Both the position numbers and the translations under genes were made by a program. Of a stretch of DNA of 64,000 nucleotides, positions 230-56,362 are shown one piece after another. The notes beneath the pieces are model-generated. The model made no database searches. It was given only the letters and a program-made list of their open reading frames with translations, and was not told the origin of the DNA. The first letter of the stretch is position 1; every line of letters begins with the position of its first letter. The DNA comes from Malacoraja senta (lineage: Eukaryota): the NCBI GenBank assembly GCA_038087875.1, contig CM075989.1, positions 12,092,001 to 12,156,000 of the forward strand, given 5' to 3'.

Positions 230-422
230 ATATACACTCAACCAATGGATCAAACCTCTGAGTCCTACCACGTCTAGTCGGGAATGGTAGTGGACAATTA
301 AACAGCTAACCCAGGAGACCCTAGACACATCCCCATCCTCCACAATGGCAGGGACATGCATCTGACTGCTAAATTTAAAAATTGAAGCATTCACAACTAA
401 TGTTCAGCAGAAATAAGCGAGT
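230..422 (+). mobile_element. Old L2/CR1-group LINE ORF2 fragment (left part)
   Basis: Decayed translation TSSREW*WTIKQLT...IPILHNG...EAFTT. Confidence 0.55.
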
Positions 423-795
423 TCGGTATTTAAACTGCGCATGCCCAGGTCATAGGTCACTCGAGATAAACATTCGCGGCACCAGAGCTGCTGCGTTTCA
501 TCCGTAGTCAGGATCGAACCCGGGTCTCCAGCGCTGCAAGCACTGTTGAATTGCCACTGGAGTTAGCGACACTTCTCCCTTCTCCACTGGTCCATGCAGA
601 AATCTCAGCAGTGAAAATCTAATGTGCATAAACTGCATGTGAAAACAACATGTGTGAGAGGGCCAATTTCTCGGCATTAATATCGGAGTTTGGGCGTGGG
701 TCCAGCATCAGGAACGAGCCCGGAGATGAAGTCGGGGCCTGGACTGGATCCCAGGCTGCGGCCGAGCTGAGGGCTGGAGTCGTGGCCAAACCCGG

Positions 796-1031
796 GGCCT
801 GGTCAAGGTGTACCAGCGCCTTGGGTGCCACCCGGTCGCTGCCATCCTGCAGCACAGCCTCTGCTTCCTGCTCTGGCTCAGCCACCGGCCACCCTCACCC
901 TGCCACTGGCACAGCGAGCCCGGCTCCGTCGAGACCCAGGTCCACGAGTGCTTCGGCCGCCTACAGCCAGGGCCAGGCCGAGTACGAGAACCAGGCCGTG
1001 TTCAAGGCCCTGGCGCTGCTCTACTACATGG
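796..1031 (+). pseudogene. Frameshifted exon fragment of an unidentified cellular gene
   Basis: GC3-rich codons give GLVKVYQRLGCHPVAAILQHSLCFLLWLSHR...SVETQVHECF. After one extra G (955/956) the frame reads AAYSQGQAEYENQAVFKALALLYYMG. It ends at donor G|GTAGGT (1031/1032), followed by purine-rich intron-like sequence. Confidence 0.6.
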
Positions 1032-1169
1032 GTAGGTGCTGGGGCAGGGAATGGGAGGAGGATGAGGGAAATGGGGAGGAGGGAGATGGGATGGGTAGAG
1101 GGAGATGGGTGGGGGGGAGGGTTGGGGGGCCTCGCTGTCTACCCACTGGCGAGGGATAACGCACCGCGC

Positions 1170-1440
1170 CGTTATACAGCAGGGGGGGGAGAGGAGAGAA
1201 GGGATGAGGGAGGGAGGGGGAGAGAGGGATGAGAGAGGGAGGGGGGAGAGAGGGATGAGGGAGGGAGAGATGAGGGAGGGAGAGGGGAGAGAGGGATGAG
1301 GGAGGGGGGAAAGAGAGGGAGTGGGGTAGAGGGGAGCTGGAGTCCAGGGGGGTAGCGAGGAGGGTAGAAGGGGTCTGGGGAGATGGGCAAGGTGGGATAG
1401 AGGGGGGGGAGTAGAGGGAGAGGGGGACAGGGAGGGTGGA
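1170..1440 (+). repeat. Purine-rich (GGGA/GAGA) low-complexity tract
   Basis: Direct reading of the sequence. Confidence 0.85.
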
Positions 1441-1602
1441 TTTGATGGGAGCGGGATAGGCGTGAGTGGTGGAATATTACATTGGGGGAATGGGTTGCGT
1501 TGGGGAAACAGGTGAGTGGTGGAATATTGCGTTGGGGAACGGGTTACGTTGGGGGACCAGTCCTCCCTTGTGACAGGGACCCAAGGGTCCCACTTAGTCT
1601 AG

Positions 1603-1760
1603 TTAAATCTAGAAATGGCCAAGAACACTGGATGCAGCAACTATGTGACCCAACCACATCCTGGCTGCAGTACTGAAGAATTGTGCTCCAGAACTAGCTG
1701 CACCTCTAGCCGAGCTATTCCACTACAGTTACAATACTAGTACCTATTCGACAATGTGCT
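1603..1760 (+). mobile_element. Old L2/CR1-group LINE ORF2 fragment (right part)
   Basis: Decayed ...RTLDAA...AVLKNCAPELAAPLAELFHYSYNT, the typical pre-RT motif. Confidence 0.6.
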
Positions 1761-1767
1761 GTCTTTT

Positions 1768-2025
1768 TAGTATTGCTCCTGCAACAGTGCTACGCTGCCT
1801 TCAATAATATAAGCTGATAATAACATTGCCCTCCAATAATATACGCTGACTAAACACTCGCCCTCCAACGTGCAACACTGCCTCAGTACTGTCCTTCCAA
1901 TTGATCAACGTTCCCTAAGTACTGGTGCTCTCACAGGGCAGTGCGCCCTCAGTACTATACCTCCAAAGGTGCTATAGTACCTCAGAACTGCTCCTCTAAT
2001 AGCATAGTGTTCCACTACTGCACCA
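1768..2025 (+). repeat. Decayed ~30-bp minisatellite resembling a DeuSINE motif
   Basis: Recurring AGTACTG...CAGTGC..C.CCCTC units. Confidence 0.55.
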
Positions 2026-3659
2026 TATTTTGCTCTGTTTCTTGTCATAAACAGGTCTGAAACCACTCACCCAAAAGTCACCCAAAAAGCCCTCTATTCC
2101 ATCTGCAGCTGGTGTCACAGAAGAAAGGGAGGGTCACACTAGAGTTGGAACTTCCTGCAGAAGCTGAGTGACATTTGTGCCAATTGGGGACAAAGGTGAG
2201 TGTCCTAGTCAAGTGTTGTCTGCGTAGAACGTGGAGCACCAGCCACATCATGAAACAAAATGTTATTCATTTATACCAAATGATTCCCACAGTGTCAGTA
2301 TTCAGCCACCACACTGACAGGGTTCACTGATCACACCAGCGGCATCATGCCTGAACACAAGAAAGGTATTTAATGCCAGAATATCAATTGCAAAATCCAA
2401 TTGATATTCTTCATAAAATAGCCAAGAGAAAGCAATACTCTAGACATCCAAAGTTTCTCAGACAATGAGATGTTTCTGAATTGCAGTCATTGTTGCAAGG
2501 TTGGAAACTCTAGCAGCTAATTTGTGCATAGGAAGCTCTCACAAAAGCAATTTAATAACATCCTTCCTGTGACATTGAGAGACTATGTTGGTCTTGGAGC
2601 ACAGTGGACAATACCCCATGCTCTTCTTGTCTCATGCTATGGGATCTTATCAATCACAGCGAACAGGCACAGTTTAAATTTAAGGTCATATATAAAGAAC
2701 TGGCTCTTACATTCCTACGCTTTGTAATTGTGTTACCAGGTCATGATGTGACCAGTCAGGATAATTTCTACAGTACATCTTCAGACGTTTGTGAGAGTAT
2801 TTAGTGACATGTCGAATTTCTATAATCTTCTGAGAAAGTGGATGTGCTGGCATGCCTTCCTTTTGATTGCATCTTCTGTACGTGCTGGGCCCAGAACAGG
2901 TCAGTTGAGATGTTAATGTCTAATAATTTGAAGCTGCAAATTCTCTATAGCGCCAATACGCCAATGAAACCTTGTGCAAGGTCTCCCGATTTTCCTTTTC
3001 ATCGGGTCATTTAGAGTTGAGGCCCAATACTGATCCCTGTGGCACACCAATCATTATCACCTCCGACAGTCCTTCAGCACTGTGTTTGAATAGCAGCTGG
3101 AATTTGTGCTCATGTCTCCAGAGTGAGAGTTGAATTCAAAACCTTCTGTCTCTAGGATAAAAACACACACTAAGCTAAGCTAATGGATTGCAATGCAGTA
3201 CATTTGTATGACCCATTAATGCTTGGCTGCAAATAGAGCATTTAAGAAGCAAAATTCTATCGTCCCCACTTTAAGAATTTCTCTCTCTCCCTCTATCTCC
3301 TCAGCCCGATTCCTGCAGGCTCCTCTAATCTCAAGCCCAGCAACTCCCAAAAATTGCCGCGGAACTATTTTTAAACTGACAGTTTCCACAGCAACACAGG
3401 GTCTGGTTCCTTTCTGACACTGCCTATGTGTAGGAGTCTGCATTAATTCACAATCTGCAGCTTGGTCAGAATTAATGAATCTCAGCAGAAAGTAATAGCC
3501 ATGGCAGTACAGATGCAATCTGATTGGATTCTCTATTCTAGCAGAGGAAGGATAGAGCCCAATGTGCGATGGTGCCTGCACAGGGTGAGGCTCCTCAATA
3601 AGAAACTGAATATTGACACTATAATTTCTGCAATGCACAGTGTATGCGTTTATCAAGGA

Positions 3660-4100
3660 GGTGGGAAGTATGATGGTTAGGGGAAGTTTGGCAGGGCAGA
3701 GTTTTGGTGGGGAGGGAGAGGTTTAGAGTGGGGGTGGGGGTTGGTTTGATTGAGAGGGGCTTGGTGGTGGGAAGGTTTAGTGGGGAGGAGATTTGGAGAG
3801 GGGTTGGTGCAGAGGCTAGGTGGGGAGTGGGAGGGAGATATGGTGGGGAATGCATTTGATGGGGGAGGAGGTTTGCTGCAAGGAGGTTTAGTTGGGAGAT
3901 CTGTGGGGTTGGTTTGGTGCGGCATGTTTAGTGGGGGGACATTTGGTTGGGGAAGTTTGGTGCTGGGGATGTGTTTTGGGGGTGAACATTGGGGGGGGCA
4001 GGTTTGGTGGGGGAGGATTGTTGGAGGGCAGGTTTGGTGGAGGGGAACATTGATGGGGTGAGGTTTGGTGGAGGAAGGTTTGGCGAGGGACAGGTTTTCT
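3660..4100 (+). repeat. G-rich low-complexity GGTTTGG repeat
   Basis: Many GGTTTGG/GGTGGGG units. This explains the Pro/Gly-rich spurious ORFs here. Confidence 0.8.
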
Positions 4101-4769
4101 AGAACTGGGCATCGTAGCTCTTGAATGGCTAGATGCAAACAAGCTCCTGGTTAAGTCTATCAAAGTGTGGCCAAGGTCATGACATGTGGAATAGTCTATT
4201 GAAGAGGAAGAGAGCAATGGGTGTGCTGTAGGTGATGTAGCTCATGCGATTGGGATCAAGGAGAATGGAGGATCCTTTGATCCAGTCAACAGATGAATCC
4301 AATGATGCCTAAGTCCATCACCTGGCCAATCCTCACTGCTTCAGAGAAGGAAATCATATCCACAAATGGCTTCGTGTTTCACTGACTTGATCCACAAAAA
4401 TGATTCCATTGGAATGCCCCAAAACCAGATACCAGACTCAGTCATTATCGCAAACAGGGGAACACAGTCTCAAGAACTTTGGGCTGAAGTCTTCACCCTG
4501 GTATATGAATCTTTGGGATTCTCGAGCTCAGAGATCAGCCAATTAATATTCACAGCCGATATGGACAAGTTTTTAGCCACAAATTGAATCAAGTAACTTG
4601 GGTATCGAGCAGGAGGTAGGGCATGTCAGATGAGTTACCATCATTTTATAAATAGTAGAGGAGGCTCAAGAGACCGAATGGTAAACTCCTTCTTCTAACC
4701 CTTATGTTAGGAGGGTGCTTTACTGTCCATAAATCATGTTCCTCTACAATAACAAGAAAGTAAAGGAAG

Positions 4770-5145
4770 AGTGTCCAAATGCACTTTCACAGCGAAGCCA
4801 CGGCTGTAACGTGGGAAACAGATCAGATAATGTTCACACATCAAGCTCCTATGAATAGCTATAACATGGAGACCAGATCATTGTTTCTGTGATCCTGGTT
4901 GAGGAACAGATATTAGTCATGACAGCATGGACGACCCCCCTCCCCCTCTTTGAAACATAATGCAACAAAGAAATCTTTGTTCAAATTAGTGCCCTGGAAT
5001 TTTCTACATTCACTTAAGAGAGGAAACCGGGCCTTAGCTTCACATCACACCTCCAAGAATGAAGCACTCCCTCTGCACTGCAACTGCAATGCCAATTTGA
5101 CTCTCATCTAGAATGAGACTTGAACCCACATCCTTCAGCTCAAAA
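4770..5145 (-). mobile_element. DeuSINE (SacSINE1-like) remnant
   Basis: GCACTCCCTC..CACTGCA and GACTTGAACCCACA (B-box complement), plus a central-domain-like sequence. Confidence 0.55.
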
Positions 5146-9624: not shown

Positions 9625-9910
9625 GGTCGGAATCAAGCCGAGGTCGGAATCTCGAGGTCGCGCCGAAGTGGACGGGTCGCGTTTGCCAAGAACAACGGAG
9701 GACCCAGCGTGGGGGGACCGCCCAGAAATAAGGGGGAGCCGGTGGGGGGGGGGAGGGGGGAGCGAAGAAGGAATTTGTAATTTTTTCACTTTGTTGGCAC
9801 CTTTATGGCGACTCTTTTGTGTACTTTATTTGCAAAAATAAAGAATTTCACTGTATCTAGGTACGTGACAATAAAGTATAATCATCATCATCAGCATCAT
9901 CATCATCATC
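9625..9910 (+). mobile_element. Short retroposon with LINE-type tail and (CAT)n, inserted in a Penelope remnant
   Basis: CpG-rich body, AATTTCACTGT...GTGACAATAAA and (ATC)n tail; pyrimidine-rich PLE-like flanks. Confidence 0.5.
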
Positions 9911-9997
9911 CACAAGCTTGCCAGCTCTTGCTCTTTCCCTTCCCCCTCACCTCTTTATTCTAGCTATTTCCCCTTTACCCTTTCAGTCCAGATGAAG

Positions 9998-12717
9998 ATG
10001 AATATTCAATATTCAATATTCAGGAGGGATAGACAGAAAGGAAAAGGAGGTGGGGTAGCGTTGCTGGTTAGAGAGGAGATTAATGCAACAGAAAGGAAGG
10101 ACATTAGCTTGGAGAATGTGGAATCGATATGGGTAGAACTGCGAAACACTAAGGGGCAGAAAACGCTAGTGGGAGTTGTGTACAGGCCACCTAACAGTAG
10201 TAGTGGAGTTGGGGATGGCATCAAACAGGAAATTAGAAATGCGTGCAACAAAGGTAAAACAGTTATAATGGGTGACTTCAATCTACATATAGATTGGGTG
10301 AATCAAATTGGCAGGGGTGCTGAGGAAGAGGATTTCTTGGAATGTATGCGGGATAGTTTTCTAAACCAACATGTAGAGGAACCAACGAGAGAGCAGGCTA
10401 TTCTAGACTGGGTATTGAGTAATGAGGAAGGGTTAGTTAGCAGTCTTGTTGTGCGTGGCCCCTTGGGCAAGAGTGACCATAATATGGTTGAGTTCTTCAT
10501 TAGGATGGAGAGTGACATAATTAATTCAGAAACAAGGGTTCTGAACTTAAAGAAAGGTAACTTTGAGGGTACGAGACGTCAATTGGCCAAGATAGACTGG
10601 CAATTGATTCTTAAAGGGTTGACGGTGGATGTGCAATGGAAGGCATTTAAAGACTGCATGGATGAACTACAACAATTGTTCATCCCAGTTTGACAAATGA
10701 ATAAATCAGGGAAGGTAGTGCATCCGTAGATAACAAGGGAAATCAGGGATAGTATCAAAACAAAAGATGAAGCATACAAATTAGCCAGAAAAAGCAGCCT
10801 ACCAGAAGACTGGGAGAAATTCAGTCCAGCAGAGGAGGACAAAGGGCTTAATTAGGAAAGGGAAAATAGATTATGAAAGAAAACTGGCAGGGAACATAAA
10901 AACTGACTGCAAAAGTTTTTATAGATATGTGAAGAGAAAAAGATTTGTTAAAACAAATGTAGGTCCCTTGCAGTCCGAAACAGGTGAATTGATCATGGGG
11001 AACAAGGACATGGCAGACCAATTGAATAACTACTTTGGTTCTGTCTTCACTAAAGAAGACATAAATAATCTGCCGGAAATAGCAGGGGACCGGGGGTCAA
11101 ATGAGATGGAGGAACTGAGTGAAATCCAGGTTAGCCGGGAAGTGGTGTTAGGTAAATTGAATGGATTAAAGGCCGATAAATCCCCAGGGCCAGATAGGCT
11201 GCATCCCAGAGTACTTAAGGAAGTAGCCCCAGAAATAGTGGATGCATTAGTGATAATTTTTCAAAACTCTTTAGATTCTGGAGTAGTTCCTGAGGATTGG
11301 AGGGTAGCTAATGTAACCCCGCTTTTCAAAAAGGGAGGGAGAGAGAAAACGGGGAATTACAGACCAGTTAGTCTAACATCTGTAGTGGGGAAACTCCTAG
11401 AGTCAGTTATTAAAGATGGGATAGCAGCACATTTGGAAAGTGGTGAAATCATTGGACAAAGTCAGCATGGATTTACGAAAGGTAAATCATGTCTGACGAA
11501 TCTTATAGAATTTTTCGAGGATGTAACTAGTAGAGTGGATAAGGGAGAACCAGTGGATGTGTTATATTTGGACTTTCAGAAAGCTTTCGACAAGGTCCCA
11601 CATAAGAGATTAATATTCAAACTTAAAGCACATGGTATTGGGGTTTCAGTATTTATGTGGATAGAGAACTGGCTGGCAGACAGGAAGCAAAGAGTAGGAG
11701 TAAACGGGTCCTTTTCAGAATGGCAGGCAGTGACTAGTGGGGGTACCGCAAGGCTCAGTGCTTGGACCCCAGCTATTTACAATATATATTAATGATTTGG
11801 ACGAGGGAATTGAATGCAACATCTCCAAGTTTGCGGATGACACAACGCTGGGGGGCAGTGTTAGTTGTGAGGAGGATGCTAGGAGGCTGCAAGGTGACTT
11901 GGATAGGCTGGGTGAGTGGGCAAATGCATGGCAGATGCAGTATAATGTGGTTAAATGTGAGGTTATCCACTTTGGTGGCAAAAACAGGAAAGTAGACTAT
12001 TATCTGAATGGTGGCCGATTAGAAAAAGGGGAGATGCAACGAGACCTGGGTGTCATGGTACACCAGTCATTGAAAGTAGGCATGCAGGTGCAGCAGGCAG
12101 TGAAGAAAGCGAATGGTATGTTAGCATTCATAGCAAAAGGATTTGAGTATAGGAGCAGGGAGGTTCTACTGCAGTTGTACAGGGTCTTGGTGAGACCACA
12201 CCTGGAGTATTGCGTATAGTTTTGGTCTCCAAATCTGAAGAAAGACATTCTTGCCATAGAGGGAGTACAGAGAAGGTTCACCAGACTGATTCCTGGGATG
12301 TCAGGACTTTCATATGAAGAAAGACTGGATAGACTCGGCTTGTACTCGCTAGAATTTAGAAGATTGAGGGGGGATCTTATAGAAACTTACAAAATTCTTT
12401 AGGGGTTGGACAGGCTAGATGCAGGAAGATTGTTCCTGATGTTGGGGAAGTCCAGAACAAGGGGTCACAGTTTAAGGATAAGGGGGGAAATCTTTTTGGA
12501 CCGAGATGAGAAAAACATTTTTCACACAGAGAGTGATGAATCTCTGGAATTCTCTGCCACAGAAGGTAGTTGAGGCCAGTTCATTGGCTATATTAAAGAG
12601 GGAGTTAGATGTGGCCCTTGTGGCTAAAGGGATCAGGGGGTATGGAGAGAAGGCAGGTACAGGATGCTGAATTGGATGATCAGCCATGATCATATTGAAT
12701 GGCGGTGCAGGCTCGAT
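9998..12717 (+). mobile_element. CR1 LINE, ORF2 (partial APE endonuclease + RT), disrupted
   Basis: VGVVYRPP, IMGDFN, SDHN; KSPGPD, YRPVSLTS, YLDFQKAFDKV, GVPQGSVLGP, KFADD. Contains stops and frameshifts. The extreme 3' tail is missing. Confidence 0.97.
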
Positions 12718-27419: not shown

Positions 27420-29897
27420 ATAGATTGGGTGAGTCAAATTGGCAGGGGTGCTGAGGAAGAGGATTTCTTGGAATGTATGCGGGATAGTTATCTAAATCAA
27501 CATGTAGAGGAACCAACGAGAGAGCAGGCTATTTTAGACTGGGTATTGAGTAATGAGGAAGGGTTAGTTAGCAGTCTTGTTGTACGTGCCCCCTTGGGCA
27601 AGAGTGACCATAATATGGTTGAGTTCTTCATTAGGATGTAGAGTGACATTGTTAATTCAGAAACAATGGTTCTGAACTTAAAGAAAGGTAACTTTGAGGG
27701 TATGAGACATGAATTGGCCATGATTGACTGGCAATTAATTCTAAAAGGGTTGACGGTGGACATGCAATGGAAGACATTTAAAGACTGCATGGATGAACTA
27801 CAAAAATTGTTCATCCCAGTTTGGCAAAAGAATAAACCAGGGAAGGTAGTGCATCCGTGGATAACAAGGGAAATTAGGGATGGTATCAAAGCGAAAGATG
27901 ATGCGTACAAATTAGCCAGAAAAAGCAGCATACCAGAGGACTGGGAGAAATTCAGAGACCAGCAGAGGAGGACAAAGGGCTTAATTAGGAAAGGAAAAAT
28001 AGATTATGAAAGAAAACTGGCAGGGAACATAAAAACTGACTGCAAAAGTTTTTATAAATATGTAAAAAGAAAGAGATTAGTTAAAACAAATGTAGGTCCC
28101 TTGCAGTCAGAAACAGGTGAGTTGATCATGGGGAACAAGGATATGGCGGACCAATTGAATAACTACTTTGGTTCCGTCTTCACTAAGGAAGACATAAATA
28201 ATCTGCCGGAAATAGCAGGGGACCGCGGGTCAACGGAGTTGGAGGAATTGAGTGAAATCCAGGTTAGTCGGGAAGTGGTTTTGGGTAAATTGAATGGATT
28301 AAAGGCCGATAAATCCCCAGGGCCAGATAGGCTGCATCCCAGAGTACTTAAGGAAGTAGCTCCAGAAATAGTGGATGCATTAGTAATAATCTTTCAAAAT
28401 TCTTTAGATTCTGGAGTAGTTCCTGAGGATTGGCGGGTAGCAAACGTAACCCCACTTTTTAAGAAGGGAGGGAGAGAGAAAACGGGGAATTACAGACCAG
28501 TTAGTCTAACATCGGTAGTGGGGAAACTGCTAGAGTCAGTTATTAAAGATGGGATAGCAGCACATTTGGAAAGTGGTGAAATCATTGGACAAAGTCAGCA
28601 TGGATTTACGAAAGGTAAATCATGTCTGACGAATCTTATAGAATTTTTCGAGGATGTAACTAGTAGCGTGGATAGGGGAGAACCAGTGGATGTGGTGTAT
28701 CTGGACTTCCAGAAGGCTTTCGACAAGGTCCCACATAAGAGATTAGTATACAAACTTAAAGCACATGGCATTGGGGGTTCAGTATTGATGTGGATAGAGA
28801 ACTGGCTGGCAAACAGGAAGCAAAGAGTAGGAGTAAACGGGTCCTTTTCACAATGGCAGGCAGTGACTAGTGGGGTACCGCAAGGCTCAGTGCTGGGACC
28901 CCAGCTATTTACAATATATATTAATGACCTGGATGAGGGAATTGAAGGCAATATCTCCAAGTTTGCGGATGACACTAAGCTGGGGGGCAGTGTTAGCTGT
29001 GAGGAGGATGCTAGGAGACTGCAAGGTGACTTGGATAGGCTGGGTGAGTGGGCAAATGTTTGGCAGATGCAGTATAATGTGGATAAATGTGAGGTTATCC
29101 ATTTTGGTGGCAAAAACAGGAAAGCAGACTATTTTCTAAATGGTGGCCGACTAGGAAAAGGGGAGATGCAGCGAGACCTGGGTGTCATGGTACACCAGTC
29201 ATTGAAAGTAGGCATGCAGGTGCAGCAGGCAGTGAAGAAAGCGAATGGTATGTTAGCTTTCATAGCAAAAGGATTTGAGTATAGGAGCAGGGAGGTTCTA
29301 CTGCAGTTGTACAGGGTCTTGGTGAGACCACACCTGGAGTATTGCGTACAGTTTTGGTCTCCAAATCTGAGGAAGGACATTATTGCCATAGAGGGAGTGC
29401 AGAGAAGGTTCACCAGACTGATTCCTGGGATGTCAGGACTGTCTTATGAAGAAAGACTGGATAGACTTGGTTTATACTCTCTAGAATTTAGGAGATTGAG
29501 AGGGGATCTTATAGAAACTTACAAAATTCTTAAGGGGTTGGACAGGCTAGATGCAGGAAGATTGCTCCCGATGTTGGGGAAGTCCAGGACAAGGGGTCAC
29601 AGCTTAAGGATAAGGGGGAAATCCTTTAAAACCGAGATGAGAAGAACTTTTTTCACACAGAGAGTGGTGAATCTCTGGAACTCTCTGCCACAGAGGGTAG
29701 TCAAGGCCAGTTCATTGGCTATATTTAAGAGGGAGCTAGATGTGGCCCTTGTGGCTAAAGGGATCAGAGGGTATGGAGAGAAGGCAGGTACAGGATACTG
29801 AGTTGGATGATCAGCCATGATCATATTGAATGGCGGTGCAGGCTCGAAGGGCCGAATGGCCTACTCCTGCACCTAATTTCTATGTTTCTATGTTTCT
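27420..29897 (+). mobile_element. Young 5'-truncated CR1 with open RT and C-terminal frame (27666-29801, 711 aa)
   Basis: All RT motifs are in one frame. Complete 3' UTR with (TTTCTATG)n tail. ACCT is duplicated at 27416-27419 and 29898-29901. One stop in the residual endonuclease. Confidence 0.97.
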
Positions 29898-30479: not shown

Positions 30480-31119
30480 AAAAAAACTCCAGGTTTTCCA
30501 GTTTCATCTTGGACCTGATATTCCTCATCCTTGAATCATTCCAGTAAATATGTCTGCACCCTCTCTAGATCCTTCATACCCCACTTAAAGTCTGGTGAGG
30601 AAAATAGGATGTAACTGTTCAGCTGTGGCCTAACCAGAATTTTGAACAGGTTCAAGATAATCTCCCTAAAATTGCCATTGTTTATGAATCTCACAATCTC
30701 GAATATTTTGTTAATTGTTCTTTCGACAGGTCATACTACTTTCAAAGACTTTTGAAAGTACAGACGGATTACCTTCTGTTTCAGCATATCTTTTAAACTC
30801 ACATTTACATTATATTGCCCCATCTCAATTATTTTCCCTAACTTATATTATTTCAAGCCTCCCTGCATTAAACGTTATCTGTAAACTGGCTGCTCATTCT
30901 GTCTTCTTGCAGTTACTGCCCTAAATCTTTGCAACGCATCACAATTTAGTATCAACTGAACATTTTGAAATTTTGATCATGTGCATATCCATGTCATTAA
31001 CATTTATCAAATAAGCAGTGGTTCCTGCACTGACCTCTGGTGAACACACGTGACCCTCATTTTTAAGTCTAAAAAATAACCGTTTATCACTACTATCTTC
31101 TGCTGATAAGCTAACCCTT
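30480..31119 (-). mobile_element. Old CR1 fragment
   Basis: GTGGCCTAACCAG and GCAGTGGTTCCTGCACTGACCTCTGG (complement of the PQGSVLGP region). Confidence 0.55.
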
Positions 31120-31123
31120 TATG

Positions 31124-31617
31124 TGTAAATTGCTCGTTTCTAAGCTTCCCCCCAGTCTCGTTTCAGTAAAAACACTGAATCAAGCACTTGAAACAACTAC
31201 ATTTTATTTTAACAAAAGCGCATTACAGTTCAACTACTGTACCTATCCCACCACGGGTTCGATCCTCATATCTGCCTGTTCAAGCCCTCTAGGCCTCGCT
31301 CAGACAGAGACACTCCAGAAGCTCACGCAGTCCCAAGCGCTCTCCCAGAAGATTGACCCTGGACCTTGTGGTAGTGGACTTTTATATTTCTCAGCCATCC
31401 AATCCATTCTATGCATTTTGCACCTAATTGACAGGGTCTGCAGATGTTCTTATTCTTTGGTTGCCAATTGTATCTAGGCTCTAGACACACTGGCACCACT
31501 CCGCAGCTTGTGCCAGCTCTGCAGAGAGCAATTCCAAATTGACCAAATCTCCCAGCAGCCCTGAAGCTTTTACCCCATGTTGAAGTCCTAGCCTCTCCAA
31601 TTTTGCCAGGATTAACA
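31124..31617 (-). repeat. ERV 3' LTR (494 bp, U3-deleted)
   Basis: Colinear with the 5' LTR except ~270 bp is missing at ~31390; adjacent to the PPT. Confidence 0.93.
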
Positions 31618-34604: not shown

Positions 34605-36595
34605 TCTCGGAACAATGGTCAAAACACAAATTGCAAAATAAAGGTTCCAGACACTAACACCTCTTTCAATCACTCCTTCCTCTCAGACTCCAAGGTCAAT
34701 GGAATCTCTCCCACACAATGGTCAGCGGTCTTTCCGATTCACACTTACACTAGCAATCGCTCCCTTCCAACTGTCTCCCAGTCACTCCTATTCAATCACT
34801 CCTATTCAATTATTCAAACCACTCGCTCCTTTTCAGTCAAACAAAGGATCTCCAAGTCTCTCACGCAGCAATCTCTCTCTCACTCAATCCACTTTAAGTT
34901 TGCACACACAGACAAATCCAAACCAAGCTAACAAAACTATAATTAAGAACGAAAATATTCCCCCGATTATCAATAACCCAAAACACACCCCAATATAAAC
35001 TATAAGCATCCAGTAAACCCCACTCTAATTAATCTTCCTCATGATGCAATCAATCAGCGGGATGACTCCTCCCCCGACGCAGCGATCGAAGGAGTACAAC
35101 CCCTGATCAAACCACCCCGATTCAGATTCTTATAAAACGATCTTAAACAATTACAAATATTTAACTCAAACACACTCTTACTTCAAGTTTCTAATCCGTA
35201 AACACTCGCACAAGCAGCAACACAAATGACAGTCCACGGACTTAACACGATCTAAATCTTAACTTTTAATTCTTAATATACTCTGTTTATTTACATACAT
35301 AGAATATTTACAAAATCCGGATCCTATGACAATACGAAAAGCTAGGTTTTCACAATTTACAAAATGATTTAAAGCACTAACGCACAGTTCACGAACACTC
35401 GATCTCGACGCCGCGTCACGCTGTTATCACGCAGTGAACCTCTCCCTCTGATACCGAAGATTTTCCCCTTCCTAGTTTACTCTTTGCTGAGGGACACTAC
35501 TCCTTAAATGACTACTTTTCCTCCCGAAAGTTACTATCCCTCTGCTAAGACTGGACTTCAAGAGGGGGACCTCTATCCCTCCTCTCTAAGTTCGACAGAA
35601 TTAGGGGTACCCTTCGCTATTCAGATTACTTTTCATCAAGTAAATCAGGTTCCCGTCTCTCAGGTACTCTTCGCTATCAGGTACTAGTCAACAATCGACC
35701 AGAGGGTTACTATTCACTGTTATCAACCGCTATTCGGAATCAATCACGGACATGCACCAACTCCTAAGTTCTATATACAGGACTTTGAATTCCACCTTAC
35801 TGGCAGAACTTCAATATGAAATTCAGTATTTGAAAATTTGGCTTTGCAAATATAGACTCAAACTCGAACTCCTAATTTTAGTGTGTATCTCTTCTACTAC
35901 GCAGGCTCTCGAATCAAACTAAAATTGCCCAGTTGAATTCTTGAAGGGACTGGAGTATTCAAGCCAATCTATACTCTGTCCATCCAAGCCCAGGACCTTT
36001 ACGAGGTTCTTCGTCCGTCACTTCAGGGAGAGACTCAGATACCTTCATGCAGACACTCCTCTCTGCTGGGCACCGAGGATCCAGCGCCTAGCTGCTTCGC
36101 CCTGTGAGTTATCGATGCCGTTTTTCAGAGGGCACCTTTTCAATTCGAGCTCCCGGCAAAGATCCGATCAAAGGTGAGACCTGTATTTTAATACCCCACC
36201 AATTTGGATACCAAGTCTAACCCTGGGCCACCCCTCGCCCGAAGAAGCACGTTTGGCTCTCGTTAAAGCAACTGCAGTCTGCCAACTATGACCAAAGTTT
36301 TGGGCCTCTAACCGAGGAAAGGAACTCTAACCCAACCCCAGCAGGGCCTCTAAACCCACCCTGGTTTTATGGGCCTCCAACCCAAAGGCGTGCTAACCAC
36401 TCTCCCGTGCTCGCTGGACTCTGTTCTAATGATCTCAATTAGACCCTTTCCCAAGCCCGCGAATGATCGATGTGCTCCGACTAACGAAGTGCCGAAAATC
36501 AATGTGAAAACCACACCGTGGGCCCGATTTCTGCACTCGCGATCGAAACAGATCAACACCCTTGATCGCAAACTTGTGTTTGGGGGTCTTTTGAA

Positions 36596-36613
36596 ATCCC
36601 GGACGAGCCCCCA
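36596..36613 (-). other. Primer binding site, tRNA-Pro
   Basis: TGGGGGCTCGTCCGGGAT, identical to the 18-nt MLV-type PBS-Pro, 1 nt from the LTR. Confidence 0.95.
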
Positions 36614-36614
36614 A

Positions 36615-37377
36615 TGTAAATGGCTCATTTCAAAGCTCCTCCCCAGTCTAGTTTCAGTAAAAACACAGAATCAGGCACTTGAAACAACTACATTTTATTT
36701 TAACAAAAGAGCATTACAGTTCAACTACTGTACCTATACCACCGCGGGTTCGATCCTCATATCTGCCTGTTCAAGCCCGCTAGGCCTCGCTCAGACAGAG
36801 ACACACCAGAAGCTCACGCAGTCCCAAGCGCTCTCCCAGAAGATCGACCCTGGACCTCGCGGTAGCGGACTTTTATATGTCCCGGGACCTTGAGGGGCCG
36901 AACCACAGGGAGGTGGTCTCTTAATAATCCAATTACAGATATCGATTAATCCCATACATAACAGACATTTCCCAAACCCAATAATACAGCAGCTCAATAC
37001 ATTGTATTCAAACTGGACTTCGCAAGGAAGCCAACTTAGAAACATTTACCCTGAACTGCAGGAAATCCAGACAAGGCTCAATACCTCATCCAATCAACAC
37101 CCGGCAAAGTTAAATTCTGCAACATTATTTACAAGGTGTATGTCTGGTTTGCAGCCATCCAATCTATTCTATGTATTTTGTACCTAATTGACAGGGTCTG
37201 CAGATGTTCTTATTCTTTGCTTGCAAATTGTATCTAGGCTCTAGACACACTGGCACCACTCTGCAACTTGTCCCAGCTCTGTAGAGAGCAATTCCAAATT
37301 GACCAAATCTCCCAGCAGCCCTGATGCTTTTACCCCATTTTGAAGTCCTAGCCTCTCCAATTTAGCCAGGATTAACA
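36615..37377 (-). repeat. ERV 5' LTR (763 bp)
   Basis: TATAAAAG (complement at ~36870-36877) and AATAAA (complement at ~36694-36699); adjacent to the PBS. Confidence 0.93.
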
Positions 37378-50233: not shown

Positions 50234-51943
<1,710 letters not shown>

Positions 51944-56116: not shown

Positions 56117-56362
56117 GGGCCTGTCCCAGTTAGGCAATTTTTTAGGCGACTGCCAGCAACTAGGACAATGGAATTCACAGAAGTAAGCACCAGCGACAAC
56201 CTACATCACCTGGCTACAACCTACGTTAACCTGGCGACAACCTACGTTAACCTGGCGACAACCTACGACAGCACCTACAACGACCTATGAGAGCCCAGAT
56301 TGTCACCACTGTCGCCGAAAATTTTTCAACATGTTGAAAAATCGCCTAAGTGGGACAGACCC
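56117..56362. mobile_element. MITE, possibly PIF/Harbinger-type
   Basis: ~26-bp terminal inverted repeats GGGCCTGTCCCAGTTAGGCAATTTTT and AAAAATCGCCTAAGTGGGACAGACCC; internal 21-bp tandem repeat ACCTGGCGACAACCTACGTTA, about three copies. Confidence 0.75.

What the first reader, a model, noticed from the sequence alone, without database searches (positions are those of the whole stretch)
423..1602. Helitron-type element apparently carrying a captured host exon plus intron
Seen: a canonical Helitron 3' end (16-nt hairpin, then CTAG|T). Inside are a SINE scrap (~505-545), a GC3-rich coding-like segment ending at a splice donor, and purine-rich intron-like DNA. The whole block splits an old LINE whose reading frame resumes at 1603. 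Established: Helitrons capture genomic gene fragments with introns and leave no TSD, best known from maize and vesper bats. Inference: this is DNA-level gene-fragment transduction in a cartilaginous fish, which I do not recall being described. The 5' A|TC boundary is not clean, and some of the host LINE seems deleted.
Basis: partly seen in the sequence, partly recalled or inferred. Interest (0 to 1): 0.72.

Follow-up and report, generated by a model that had tools for sequence, protein, structure and literature searches.

The report
Skate Helitron carrying a SAC3D1 exon
This is one old, broken copy of a skate jumping-gene family, most likely a Helitron, that picked up part of the host gene SAC3D1 with its splice site and copied it around the genome; such gene capture is known from bats, a frog and maize, but we found no report of it in sharks or rays.

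Summary
Window 686-1031 is a decayed piece of skate SAC3D1 (E 7.9e-11, 71% identity). It has two frameshifts, and homology stops exactly at a GT donor (1032). No other SAC3D1 part lies in the 64 kb. It includes a repeat found only in the skate proteins among 10 cartilaginous-fish orthologues.

Contigs of this species and two relatives show both ends at very high depth. At least five separate cargo contigs overlap in each of two species, 13-16% different from this copy. One contig joins cargo to the 3' subterminal repeat. The family's 5' edge is near 412, not 423.

The 3' hairpin and CTAG|T are as described, and there is no target-site duplication. Not shown: a 5' TC, that other copies end at CTAG|T, the parent intron, a RepHel partner, and true copy numbers. 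The LINE identity of the flanks has only weak tool support.

Verdict: probable non-autonomous Helitron1 family that captured an exon and splice donor at DNA level. The mechanism is known (bat NUBPL capture); eight literature searches found no report for this lineage.

The parts
243..411 (+). Left flank: decayed moderately repetitive element, probably a LINE ORF2 fragment (family identity recalled, start approximate)
   Evidence: Summed depth 4-12 times single-copy in 262-342; joint 307->1664 in X1 and X4; no significant alignment to the in-window LINE
412..501 (+). 5' terminal module of the element, high copy; family edge at about 412 (412-414 possible); no TC at the edge in this copy
   Evidence: Loose ends before 412 in 179/214/179 contigs, agreement 0.33-0.34; implied depth over 412-423 about 1,900-5,000 times the flank
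502..546 (-). Scrap of a very high-copy SINE; antisense orientation and tRNA-like B box are my reading from recall
   Evidence: Highest depth bin; loose ends before 502-505 and behind 536-546 with agreement 0.5-0.7 in the three large runs
547..685 (.). Internal segment of unknown origin, multi-copy at lower level
   Evidence: Depth 7-15 times flank at 629, 107-179 times as bin mean 586-666; no SAC3D1 match above noise
686..1031 (+). Captured SAC3D1 exon fragment, pseudogenised: one unit of the skate-specific repeat (686-793); 16 codons missing and a 1-nt frameshift near 800; 4 codons missing near 872; an 11-nt frameshifting gap near 955-961
   Evidence: 35/49 and 20/26 identities to Rhinoraja SAC3D1; 20/34 to the Amblyraja repeat; GC3 0.92 and 1.0; other copies have an extra G behind 800
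1032..1037 (+). Splice donor GTAGGT (phase 1) exactly where protein homology stops
   Evidence: alignments to 7 of 10 orthologues end at nt 1033 (Rhinoraja, Pristis, Hemitrygon, Narcine and the sharks reach it; Amblyraja stops at 1024, the Mobula isoform lacks the stretch)
1038..1439 (+). Purine-rich tract with tandem array 1183-1321; its first part is probably the start of the captured intron (inferred)
   Evidence: X1 record 7 runs 908-1089 across the donor; depth 232-380 times flank in 1072-1152, near zero in 1153-1233 (repeat letters skipped there)
1440..1575 (+). 3' subterminal region with degenerate 50-bp and 17-bp repeats, very high copy
   Evidence: depth 16,000-30,000 times flank in 1477-1557; joint 825->1514 links cargo to it in another copy
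1576..1602 (+). Helitron1-type 3' end: 16-nt hairpin, 7-nt spacer, CTAG; next base T
   Evidence: depth at 1584 about 1,900-2,500 times flank; many copies carry one more loop base
1603..1770 (+). Right flank: continuation of the decayed LINE-like element (end approximate)
   Evidence: 33% over 30 aa to in-window LINE ORF2, E 0.15; depth 16-37 times flank in 1639-1719; Atlas RVT_1 lead at 0.83 only

Best explanation
Window 412-1602 is one old, dead copy of a non-autonomous Helitron1-type family of skates. An ancestor of the family copied genomic DNA of the skate SAC3D1 gene (end of an exon, its splice donor and probably the start of the intron) between its ends. The likely route is rolling-circle read-through past a 3' terminator to a new one. 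The composite was then amplified in trans by a RepHel and gave internally deleted derivatives. This copy inserted into an old LINE, probably before the three sampled species split, and has since decayed. Shown: cargo identity, skate origin of the cargo, pseudogene state, many copies of both ends, several diverged cargo copies, one cargo-to-3' link, no TSD. Inferred: the rolling-circle mechanism, read-through capture, intron origin of the purine tract, and one deletion removing host LINE sequence with the first base or two of the element.
For: Cargo is SAC3D1 and has the repeat seen only in the 2 skate proteins of 10. No further SAC3D1 sequence in 64 kb. Homology ends at a GT donor. Five contigs in X1 (covering 855-875) and six in X3 (870-978), each at about single-copy depth and 13-16% different from this copy (table 8). 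Sharp shared 5' edge with unrelated flanks in 179/214/179 contigs; both ends at about 2,000-5,000 times flank depth. Joint 825->1514 with 36 letters between (X1, one contig). Deletion variant 780->961 in 3 of 3 large runs. The 16-codon gap also appears in P0022 from another data set. Hairpin plus CTAG|T, no direct duplication of 3 nt or more at the junctions, no terminal inverted repeat. Read-through capture is shown experimentally for Helraiser (PMC4778049, passages).
Against: No 5' TC at the family edge in this copy; the loose-letter consensus before 412 ends in TC in only 1 of 3 runs. The junction is not a clean A|T site and host sequence seems lost. 3' loose ends were among 1,785 rows not shown. 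No listed contig spans the whole element, so 5' end, cargo and 3' end are seen together only in this window. Depth is not copy number (tool caveat; overlapping contigs inflate it). One cargo contig per species may be the parent gene. The fragment starts mid-exon, which simple read-through does not explain without later deletion. No RepHel examined.
Confidence: 0.78

Rival explanations
1. Same captured cargo, but the carrier is not a canonical Helitron1: a rolling-circle variant with a non-TC 5' end, or another TSD-less DNA element.
For: Family edge at 412 reads AATAAG in this copy; the loose consensus ends in C in 3 of 3 runs but in TC in only 1. No transposase was seen.
Against: The 3' end has the HLE1 layout (hairpin, then CTRR, then T) as defined in PMC11417382 (passages). 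No inverted repeats between the ends: best 10 of 20 over 13 offsets. A deletion across the left junction would explain the missing TC in this copy.
Confidence: 0.1
2. The block is a patchwork: a SAC3D1 fragment spread by segmental duplication or by another element, with unrelated repeats (5' module, SINE, Helitron 3' piece) inserted beside it.
For: Depth differs by more than 100-fold between modules, and no listed contig spans 5' end to cargo or the whole element.
Against: A second copy joins cargo directly to the 3' subterminal repeat (825->1514). Depth falls to the single-copy level within about 150-200 nt outside both ends, so copies do not share flanks. The two flanks appear in order in other contigs (307->1664), as for one inserted block.
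Confidence: 0.08
3. The cargo is a retroposed SAC3D1 mRNA fragment that landed inside a Helitron, as in some bat elements.
For: It is 5'-truncated mid-exon; this route is documented in bats (PMC4224331, passages). The intron position in skate SAC3D1 was not read from genomic DNA.
Against: Homology stops at a GT donor 160 codons before the end of the protein; no poly-A follows. A retrocopy should keep the 3' part and cross the junction.
Confidence: 0.03
4. It is an exon of a functional local gene.
For: High GC3 and an intact donor.
Against: Two frameshifts, three deletions in the conserved SAC3 domain, no other exon in 64 kb, many copies.
Confidence: 0.01

Closest known systems
HelibatN3 (NUBPL) and HelibatN217.1 (TMBIM4) of vesper bats (PMC4224331, passages; PMC4778049, passages)
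   Same: Non-autonomous Helitron carrying a host exon plus partial intron, amplified to many copies and shared by related species
   Different: Host is a skate; cargo is a SAC3D1 coding fragment that starts mid-exon, with no promoter or 5' UTR detected; 5' TC and autonomous partner not shown here
Heli1Xen1 of Xenopus laevis (PMC12001565, passages and section 20)
   Same: Non-mammalian vertebrate Helitron1 family with captured coding fragments
   Different: There 19 fragments in 64 insertions, at most 17 copies each; here one capture may be far more amplified (depth suggests tens to hundreds or more, not counted). The listed hosts include no cartilaginous fish
Maize gene-capturing Helitrons (via PMC4778049 and PMC12001565 passages)
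   Same: DNA-level capture of gene fragments, decay to pseudo-exons
   Different: Only one donor gene identified here

Membership tests
Helitron1 (HLE1), non-autonomous | 3' hairpin about 11 nt before a terminal CTRR | tested here: met
   1576-1591 hairpin, CTAG 1599-1602; high depth at the hairpin in three species
Helitron1 (HLE1), non-autonomous | Copies end consistently at CTRR followed by T | tested here: inconclusive
   True for this copy; depth falls within bin 1558-1638, but the 3' loose-end rows were not shown
Helitron1 (HLE1), non-autonomous | 5' TC | tested here: inconclusive
   The TC at 423 is internal. The family edge is near 412, where this copy has no TC; loose consensus ends in C in 3 of 3 runs, TC in 1 of 3. 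This junction may be deleted
Helitron1 (HLE1), non-autonomous | Insertion between A and T | tested here: inconclusive
   T follows CTAG; A precedes 412-414; no empty site seen; host sequence appears lost
Helitron1 (HLE1), non-autonomous | No target-site duplication | tested here: met
   No direct duplication of 3-14 nt at offsets -3 to +3 of the left junction
Helitron1 (HLE1), non-autonomous | Dispersed copies with shared ends and unrelated flanks | tested here: met
   5' end: 179/214/179 contigs, flank agreement 0.33-0.34; shown directly for the 5' end only
Helitron1 (HLE1), non-autonomous | Ends shared with a RepHel-coding autonomous element | not testable with these tools
   No genome held
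Helitron2 / Helentron (HLE2) | Short terminal or subterminal inverted repeats | tested here: not met
   Best 10 of 20 between the two ends over 13 offsets; none linking the ends
DNA-level gene-fragment capture (transduplication) | Host-gene fragment between the element ends, in several copies | tested here: met
   several cargo contigs and one cargo-to-3' joint
DNA-level gene-fragment capture (transduplication) | Intron sequence matching the donor gene | tested here: inconclusive
   GT donor at the end of homology; parent intron not available; human intron at the same place is recalled only
Retrocopy | Joined exons, poly-A tail, TSD | tested here: not met

The most novel reading that the evidence does not exclude
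A skate-wide rolling-circle family amplified one SAC3D1 exon-plus-donor capture to about a thousand copies, on the scale of bat NUBPL, in a vertebrate group described as poor in DNA transposons. Some copies also feed back on the parent gene: P0022 has a cargo-type start and a true SAC3D1 remainder, which would be a real chimeric transcript or gene conversion and not an assembly artefact.
Probability: 0.12. Interest if true: 0.65.

Novelty: new member of a known kind. Interest (0 to 1): 0.42.

Why it matters
It would add cartilaginous fishes to bats and Xenopus as vertebrates with Helitron exon capture, and it points to a large rolling-circle burst in skates, although a review describes non-LTR retroelements as dominating the one chondrichthyan genome then known (PMC5381603, passages). 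Many dispersed copies of a splice donor could create new exons, and they can mislead SAC3D1 annotation and assembly. Shared insertions and deletion variants could serve as phylogenetic markers for skates. The mechanism itself is not new.

Tried and rejected
No whole genome is held, so no genome-wide BLAST, end alignment or RepHel search was possible.

Exact-pattern scans found nothing: 3' motif in viral, metagenome and prokaryote collections, 5' motif in metagenome and viral collections. These collections are not expected to hold skate DNA.

Cargo searches that failed: word-index search (0 of 303 candidates), PDB, Atlas (best 0.79), Pfam on the window fragments, shorter SAC3D1 fragments (0 of 145). 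Of the 4 hits, three (P0003-P0005) are repetitive or low-scoring and were set aside as chance. Rfam gave only a sub-threshold hit.

No RNA holder was listed; X24 gave 8 SINE-only records. Expression is untested.

No second copy of either end lies in the window. The in-window CR1-type ORF2 was too distant to measure the LINE deletion. The ANKRD34-like protein was not in the collection, so synteny with SAC3D1 was not tested.

Rejected: 423 as the 5' end; terminal inverted repeats; TSD; retrocopy; local functional exon. Six look-ups of earlier findings returned nothing on this family (one search gave five loosely related notes).

Full report
Observation. The 3' end is as described: hairpin 1576-1591, 7-nt spacer, CTAG 1599-1602, then T. 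By itself the motif is weak: 30 shuffled windows gave a mean of 0.7 such sites against 2 real ones. The coding-like segment has GC3 0.92 (811-960) and 1.0 (959-1030) in two different frames. The TC at 423 follows T, not A. No whole genome is held, so copy evidence comes from one laying of public contigs.

The cargo is SAC3D1. A search of 1.84 billion representatives with window 766-966 gave 4 hits. The best was P0002 (E 7.9e-11, 71%), named SAC3 domain-containing protein 1-like of the skate Rhinoraja longicauda, with Pfam SAC3_GANP; the other three look like chance. Against 10 cartilaginous-fish orthologues the window aligns in three pieces: 686-793 to a repeat insertion present only in the 2 skate proteins (20/34 to Amblyraja), 808-954 (35/49 to Rhinoraja) and 956-1033 (20/26). 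Scores fall from skates to other rays to sharks. Relative to the parent, 16 codons are missing near 800, 4 near 872 and 11 nt near 955-961, with two frameshifts. Homology ends at the glycine whose codon is split by the GT at 1032, and what follows does not match the next residues of the protein. A profile of the 10 proteins finds nothing else in six frames of the 64 kb. So this is a skate-derived pseudo-exon away from its gene. That the window is from a skate is inferred from this; organism names were coded.

It is a multi-copy family. I laid 4 of the 24 listed runs on 100-2500 at 80% likeness: X1 (same species; possibly the source sample), X3 and X4 (two relatives), X24 (small; 8 SINE-only records). 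Outer flanks sit at depth about 27-40. Relative to that, summed depth is about 1,900-5,000 at 412-423, 260-960 at 667-747, 39-145 at 829-909 (21-37 at base 882), 1,000-3,000 at 991-1071 and 1,900-2,500 at 1584. The tool warns that this is not copy number; overlapping short contigs inflate it. Direct counts are safer. 179, 214 and 179 contigs have unrelated flanks before 412. Among the 8 pieces shown per run (of 21,584, 18,888 and 16,258 laid), five X1 contigs cover 855-875 and six X3 contigs cover 870-978, each near single-copy depth and 13-16% different from this copy; X4 shows three over 874-995 (11-15%). One per species could be the parent gene. A joint 780->961 occurs in 3, 5 and 8 contigs; table 5c shows a true deletion for X4. 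One X1 contig joins 825 to 1514 with 36 letters between, tying cargo to the 3' subterminal repeat in another copy. One contig (X1 record 7, 908-1089) crosses the donor by more than 31 letters; three others cross it by 24-26. Against this, no listed piece spans the element, and the 3' loose ends were among 1,785 rows not shown.

Boundaries and age. The loose-letter consensus ends in C in all three runs but in TC in one, so a canonical 5' TC is neither shown nor excluded. There is no TSD and no terminal inverted repeat. The flanks are moderately repetitive and appear in order in other contigs (307->1664 in X1 and X4). Their LINE identity has only weak tool support. The loss of about 80-90 nt of LINE is from my recall of that family. 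One deletion across the left junction would explain both that loss and the missing TC (inference). In X3 and X4 the left-flank contigs run 28-29 letters into the element and end there, just under the tool's 31-letter rule, so a shared insertion is likely but not proven. Flanks differ from those species by 3-6%, less than cargo copies differ from this one, which fits amplification before their split.

Mechanism. Most likely (0.78) a non-autonomous Helitron1 took up genomic SAC3D1 sequence by read-through to a new terminator and was then copied in trans. Helraiser experiments show such 3' transduction and an AT target (PMC4778049, passages). Bats show a composite of one copy's 5' end and another's 3' end, and exon-plus-partial-intron captures such as NUBPL at about a thousand copies (PMC4224331, passages). 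The mid-exon start needs later internal deletion, which the joints show is common in this family. A single capture is supported by P0022, a Logan protein from another data set that lacks the same 16 codons. The intron origin of the purine tract is inferred; a human intron at this position is recalled only.

Comparison and novelty. HLE1 is defined by 5' TC, 3' hairpin with CTRR and A|T insertion (PMC11417382, passages). The 3' layout, absence of TSD and dispersal are met; the 5' TC, the target site and consistent 3' ends are inconclusive; RepHel was not testable. It works like a Helitron1, and membership is probable but not established. Gene capture is known in maize, bats and Xenopus laevis (PMC12001565, passages and section 20). 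Eight searches of the paper library (listings only, except for the papers named here) showed no report of Helitron gene capture in cartilaginous fishes or of SAC3D1 capture. The little skate genome paper has no 'helitron' in its text (listing) or in 3 supplementary files searched (one scanned file was unreadable). The dogfish genome paper has it only in references. Subscription journals, Repbase and Dfam were not searchable, so the family may already be catalogued.

Verdict. A real feature, a new member of a known kind. Interest 0.42. The open upside is the scale of amplification and the chimeric-looking P0022, which could equally be an assembly artefact.

Noticed in passing
P0022 (Logan protein, 1,029-nt contig): Its first 25 residues resemble the captured copy (same 16-codon gap; 6 of 18 anchored sites side with the window against 2 with the parent), while the remaining 228 are 226/228 identical to Leucoraja SAC3D1, across the presumed intron. 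Assembly chimera, real chimeric transcript or gene conversion.
   Followed up: partly
P0002, P0009, P0019: Skate SAC3D1 proteins carry a lineage-specific tandem repeat insertion of variable length that is absent from 8 other ray and shark proteins; Rhinoraja has an annotated copy on a 6.6-kb contig as well as the chromosomal one.
   Followed up: partly
window 50234-51943 (+): Intact 537-aa ankyrin-repeat ORF from ATG 50330; ANKRD34-like by my recall.
   Followed up: partly
window 27642-29801 (+) and about 9875-12219 (+): A 719-aa open LINE ORF2 with RVT_1 domain, and a second, frameshifted copy of the same family; CR1-type by recall.
   Followed up: partly
window 3660-4100: Degenerate G-rich tandem array, loosely similar to the element's subterminal repeat (71% over 49 nt); no terminal hairpin found.
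   Followed up: partly
window 56714-56685 (-): A second hairpin followed by CTAA|T; within chance expectation. A 21-bp tandem repeat lies nearby at 56193-56287.
   Followed up: no
window 31115-31477 and 36354-36893: Two similar open frames, apparently copies of one repeat about 5 kb apart.
   Followed up: no
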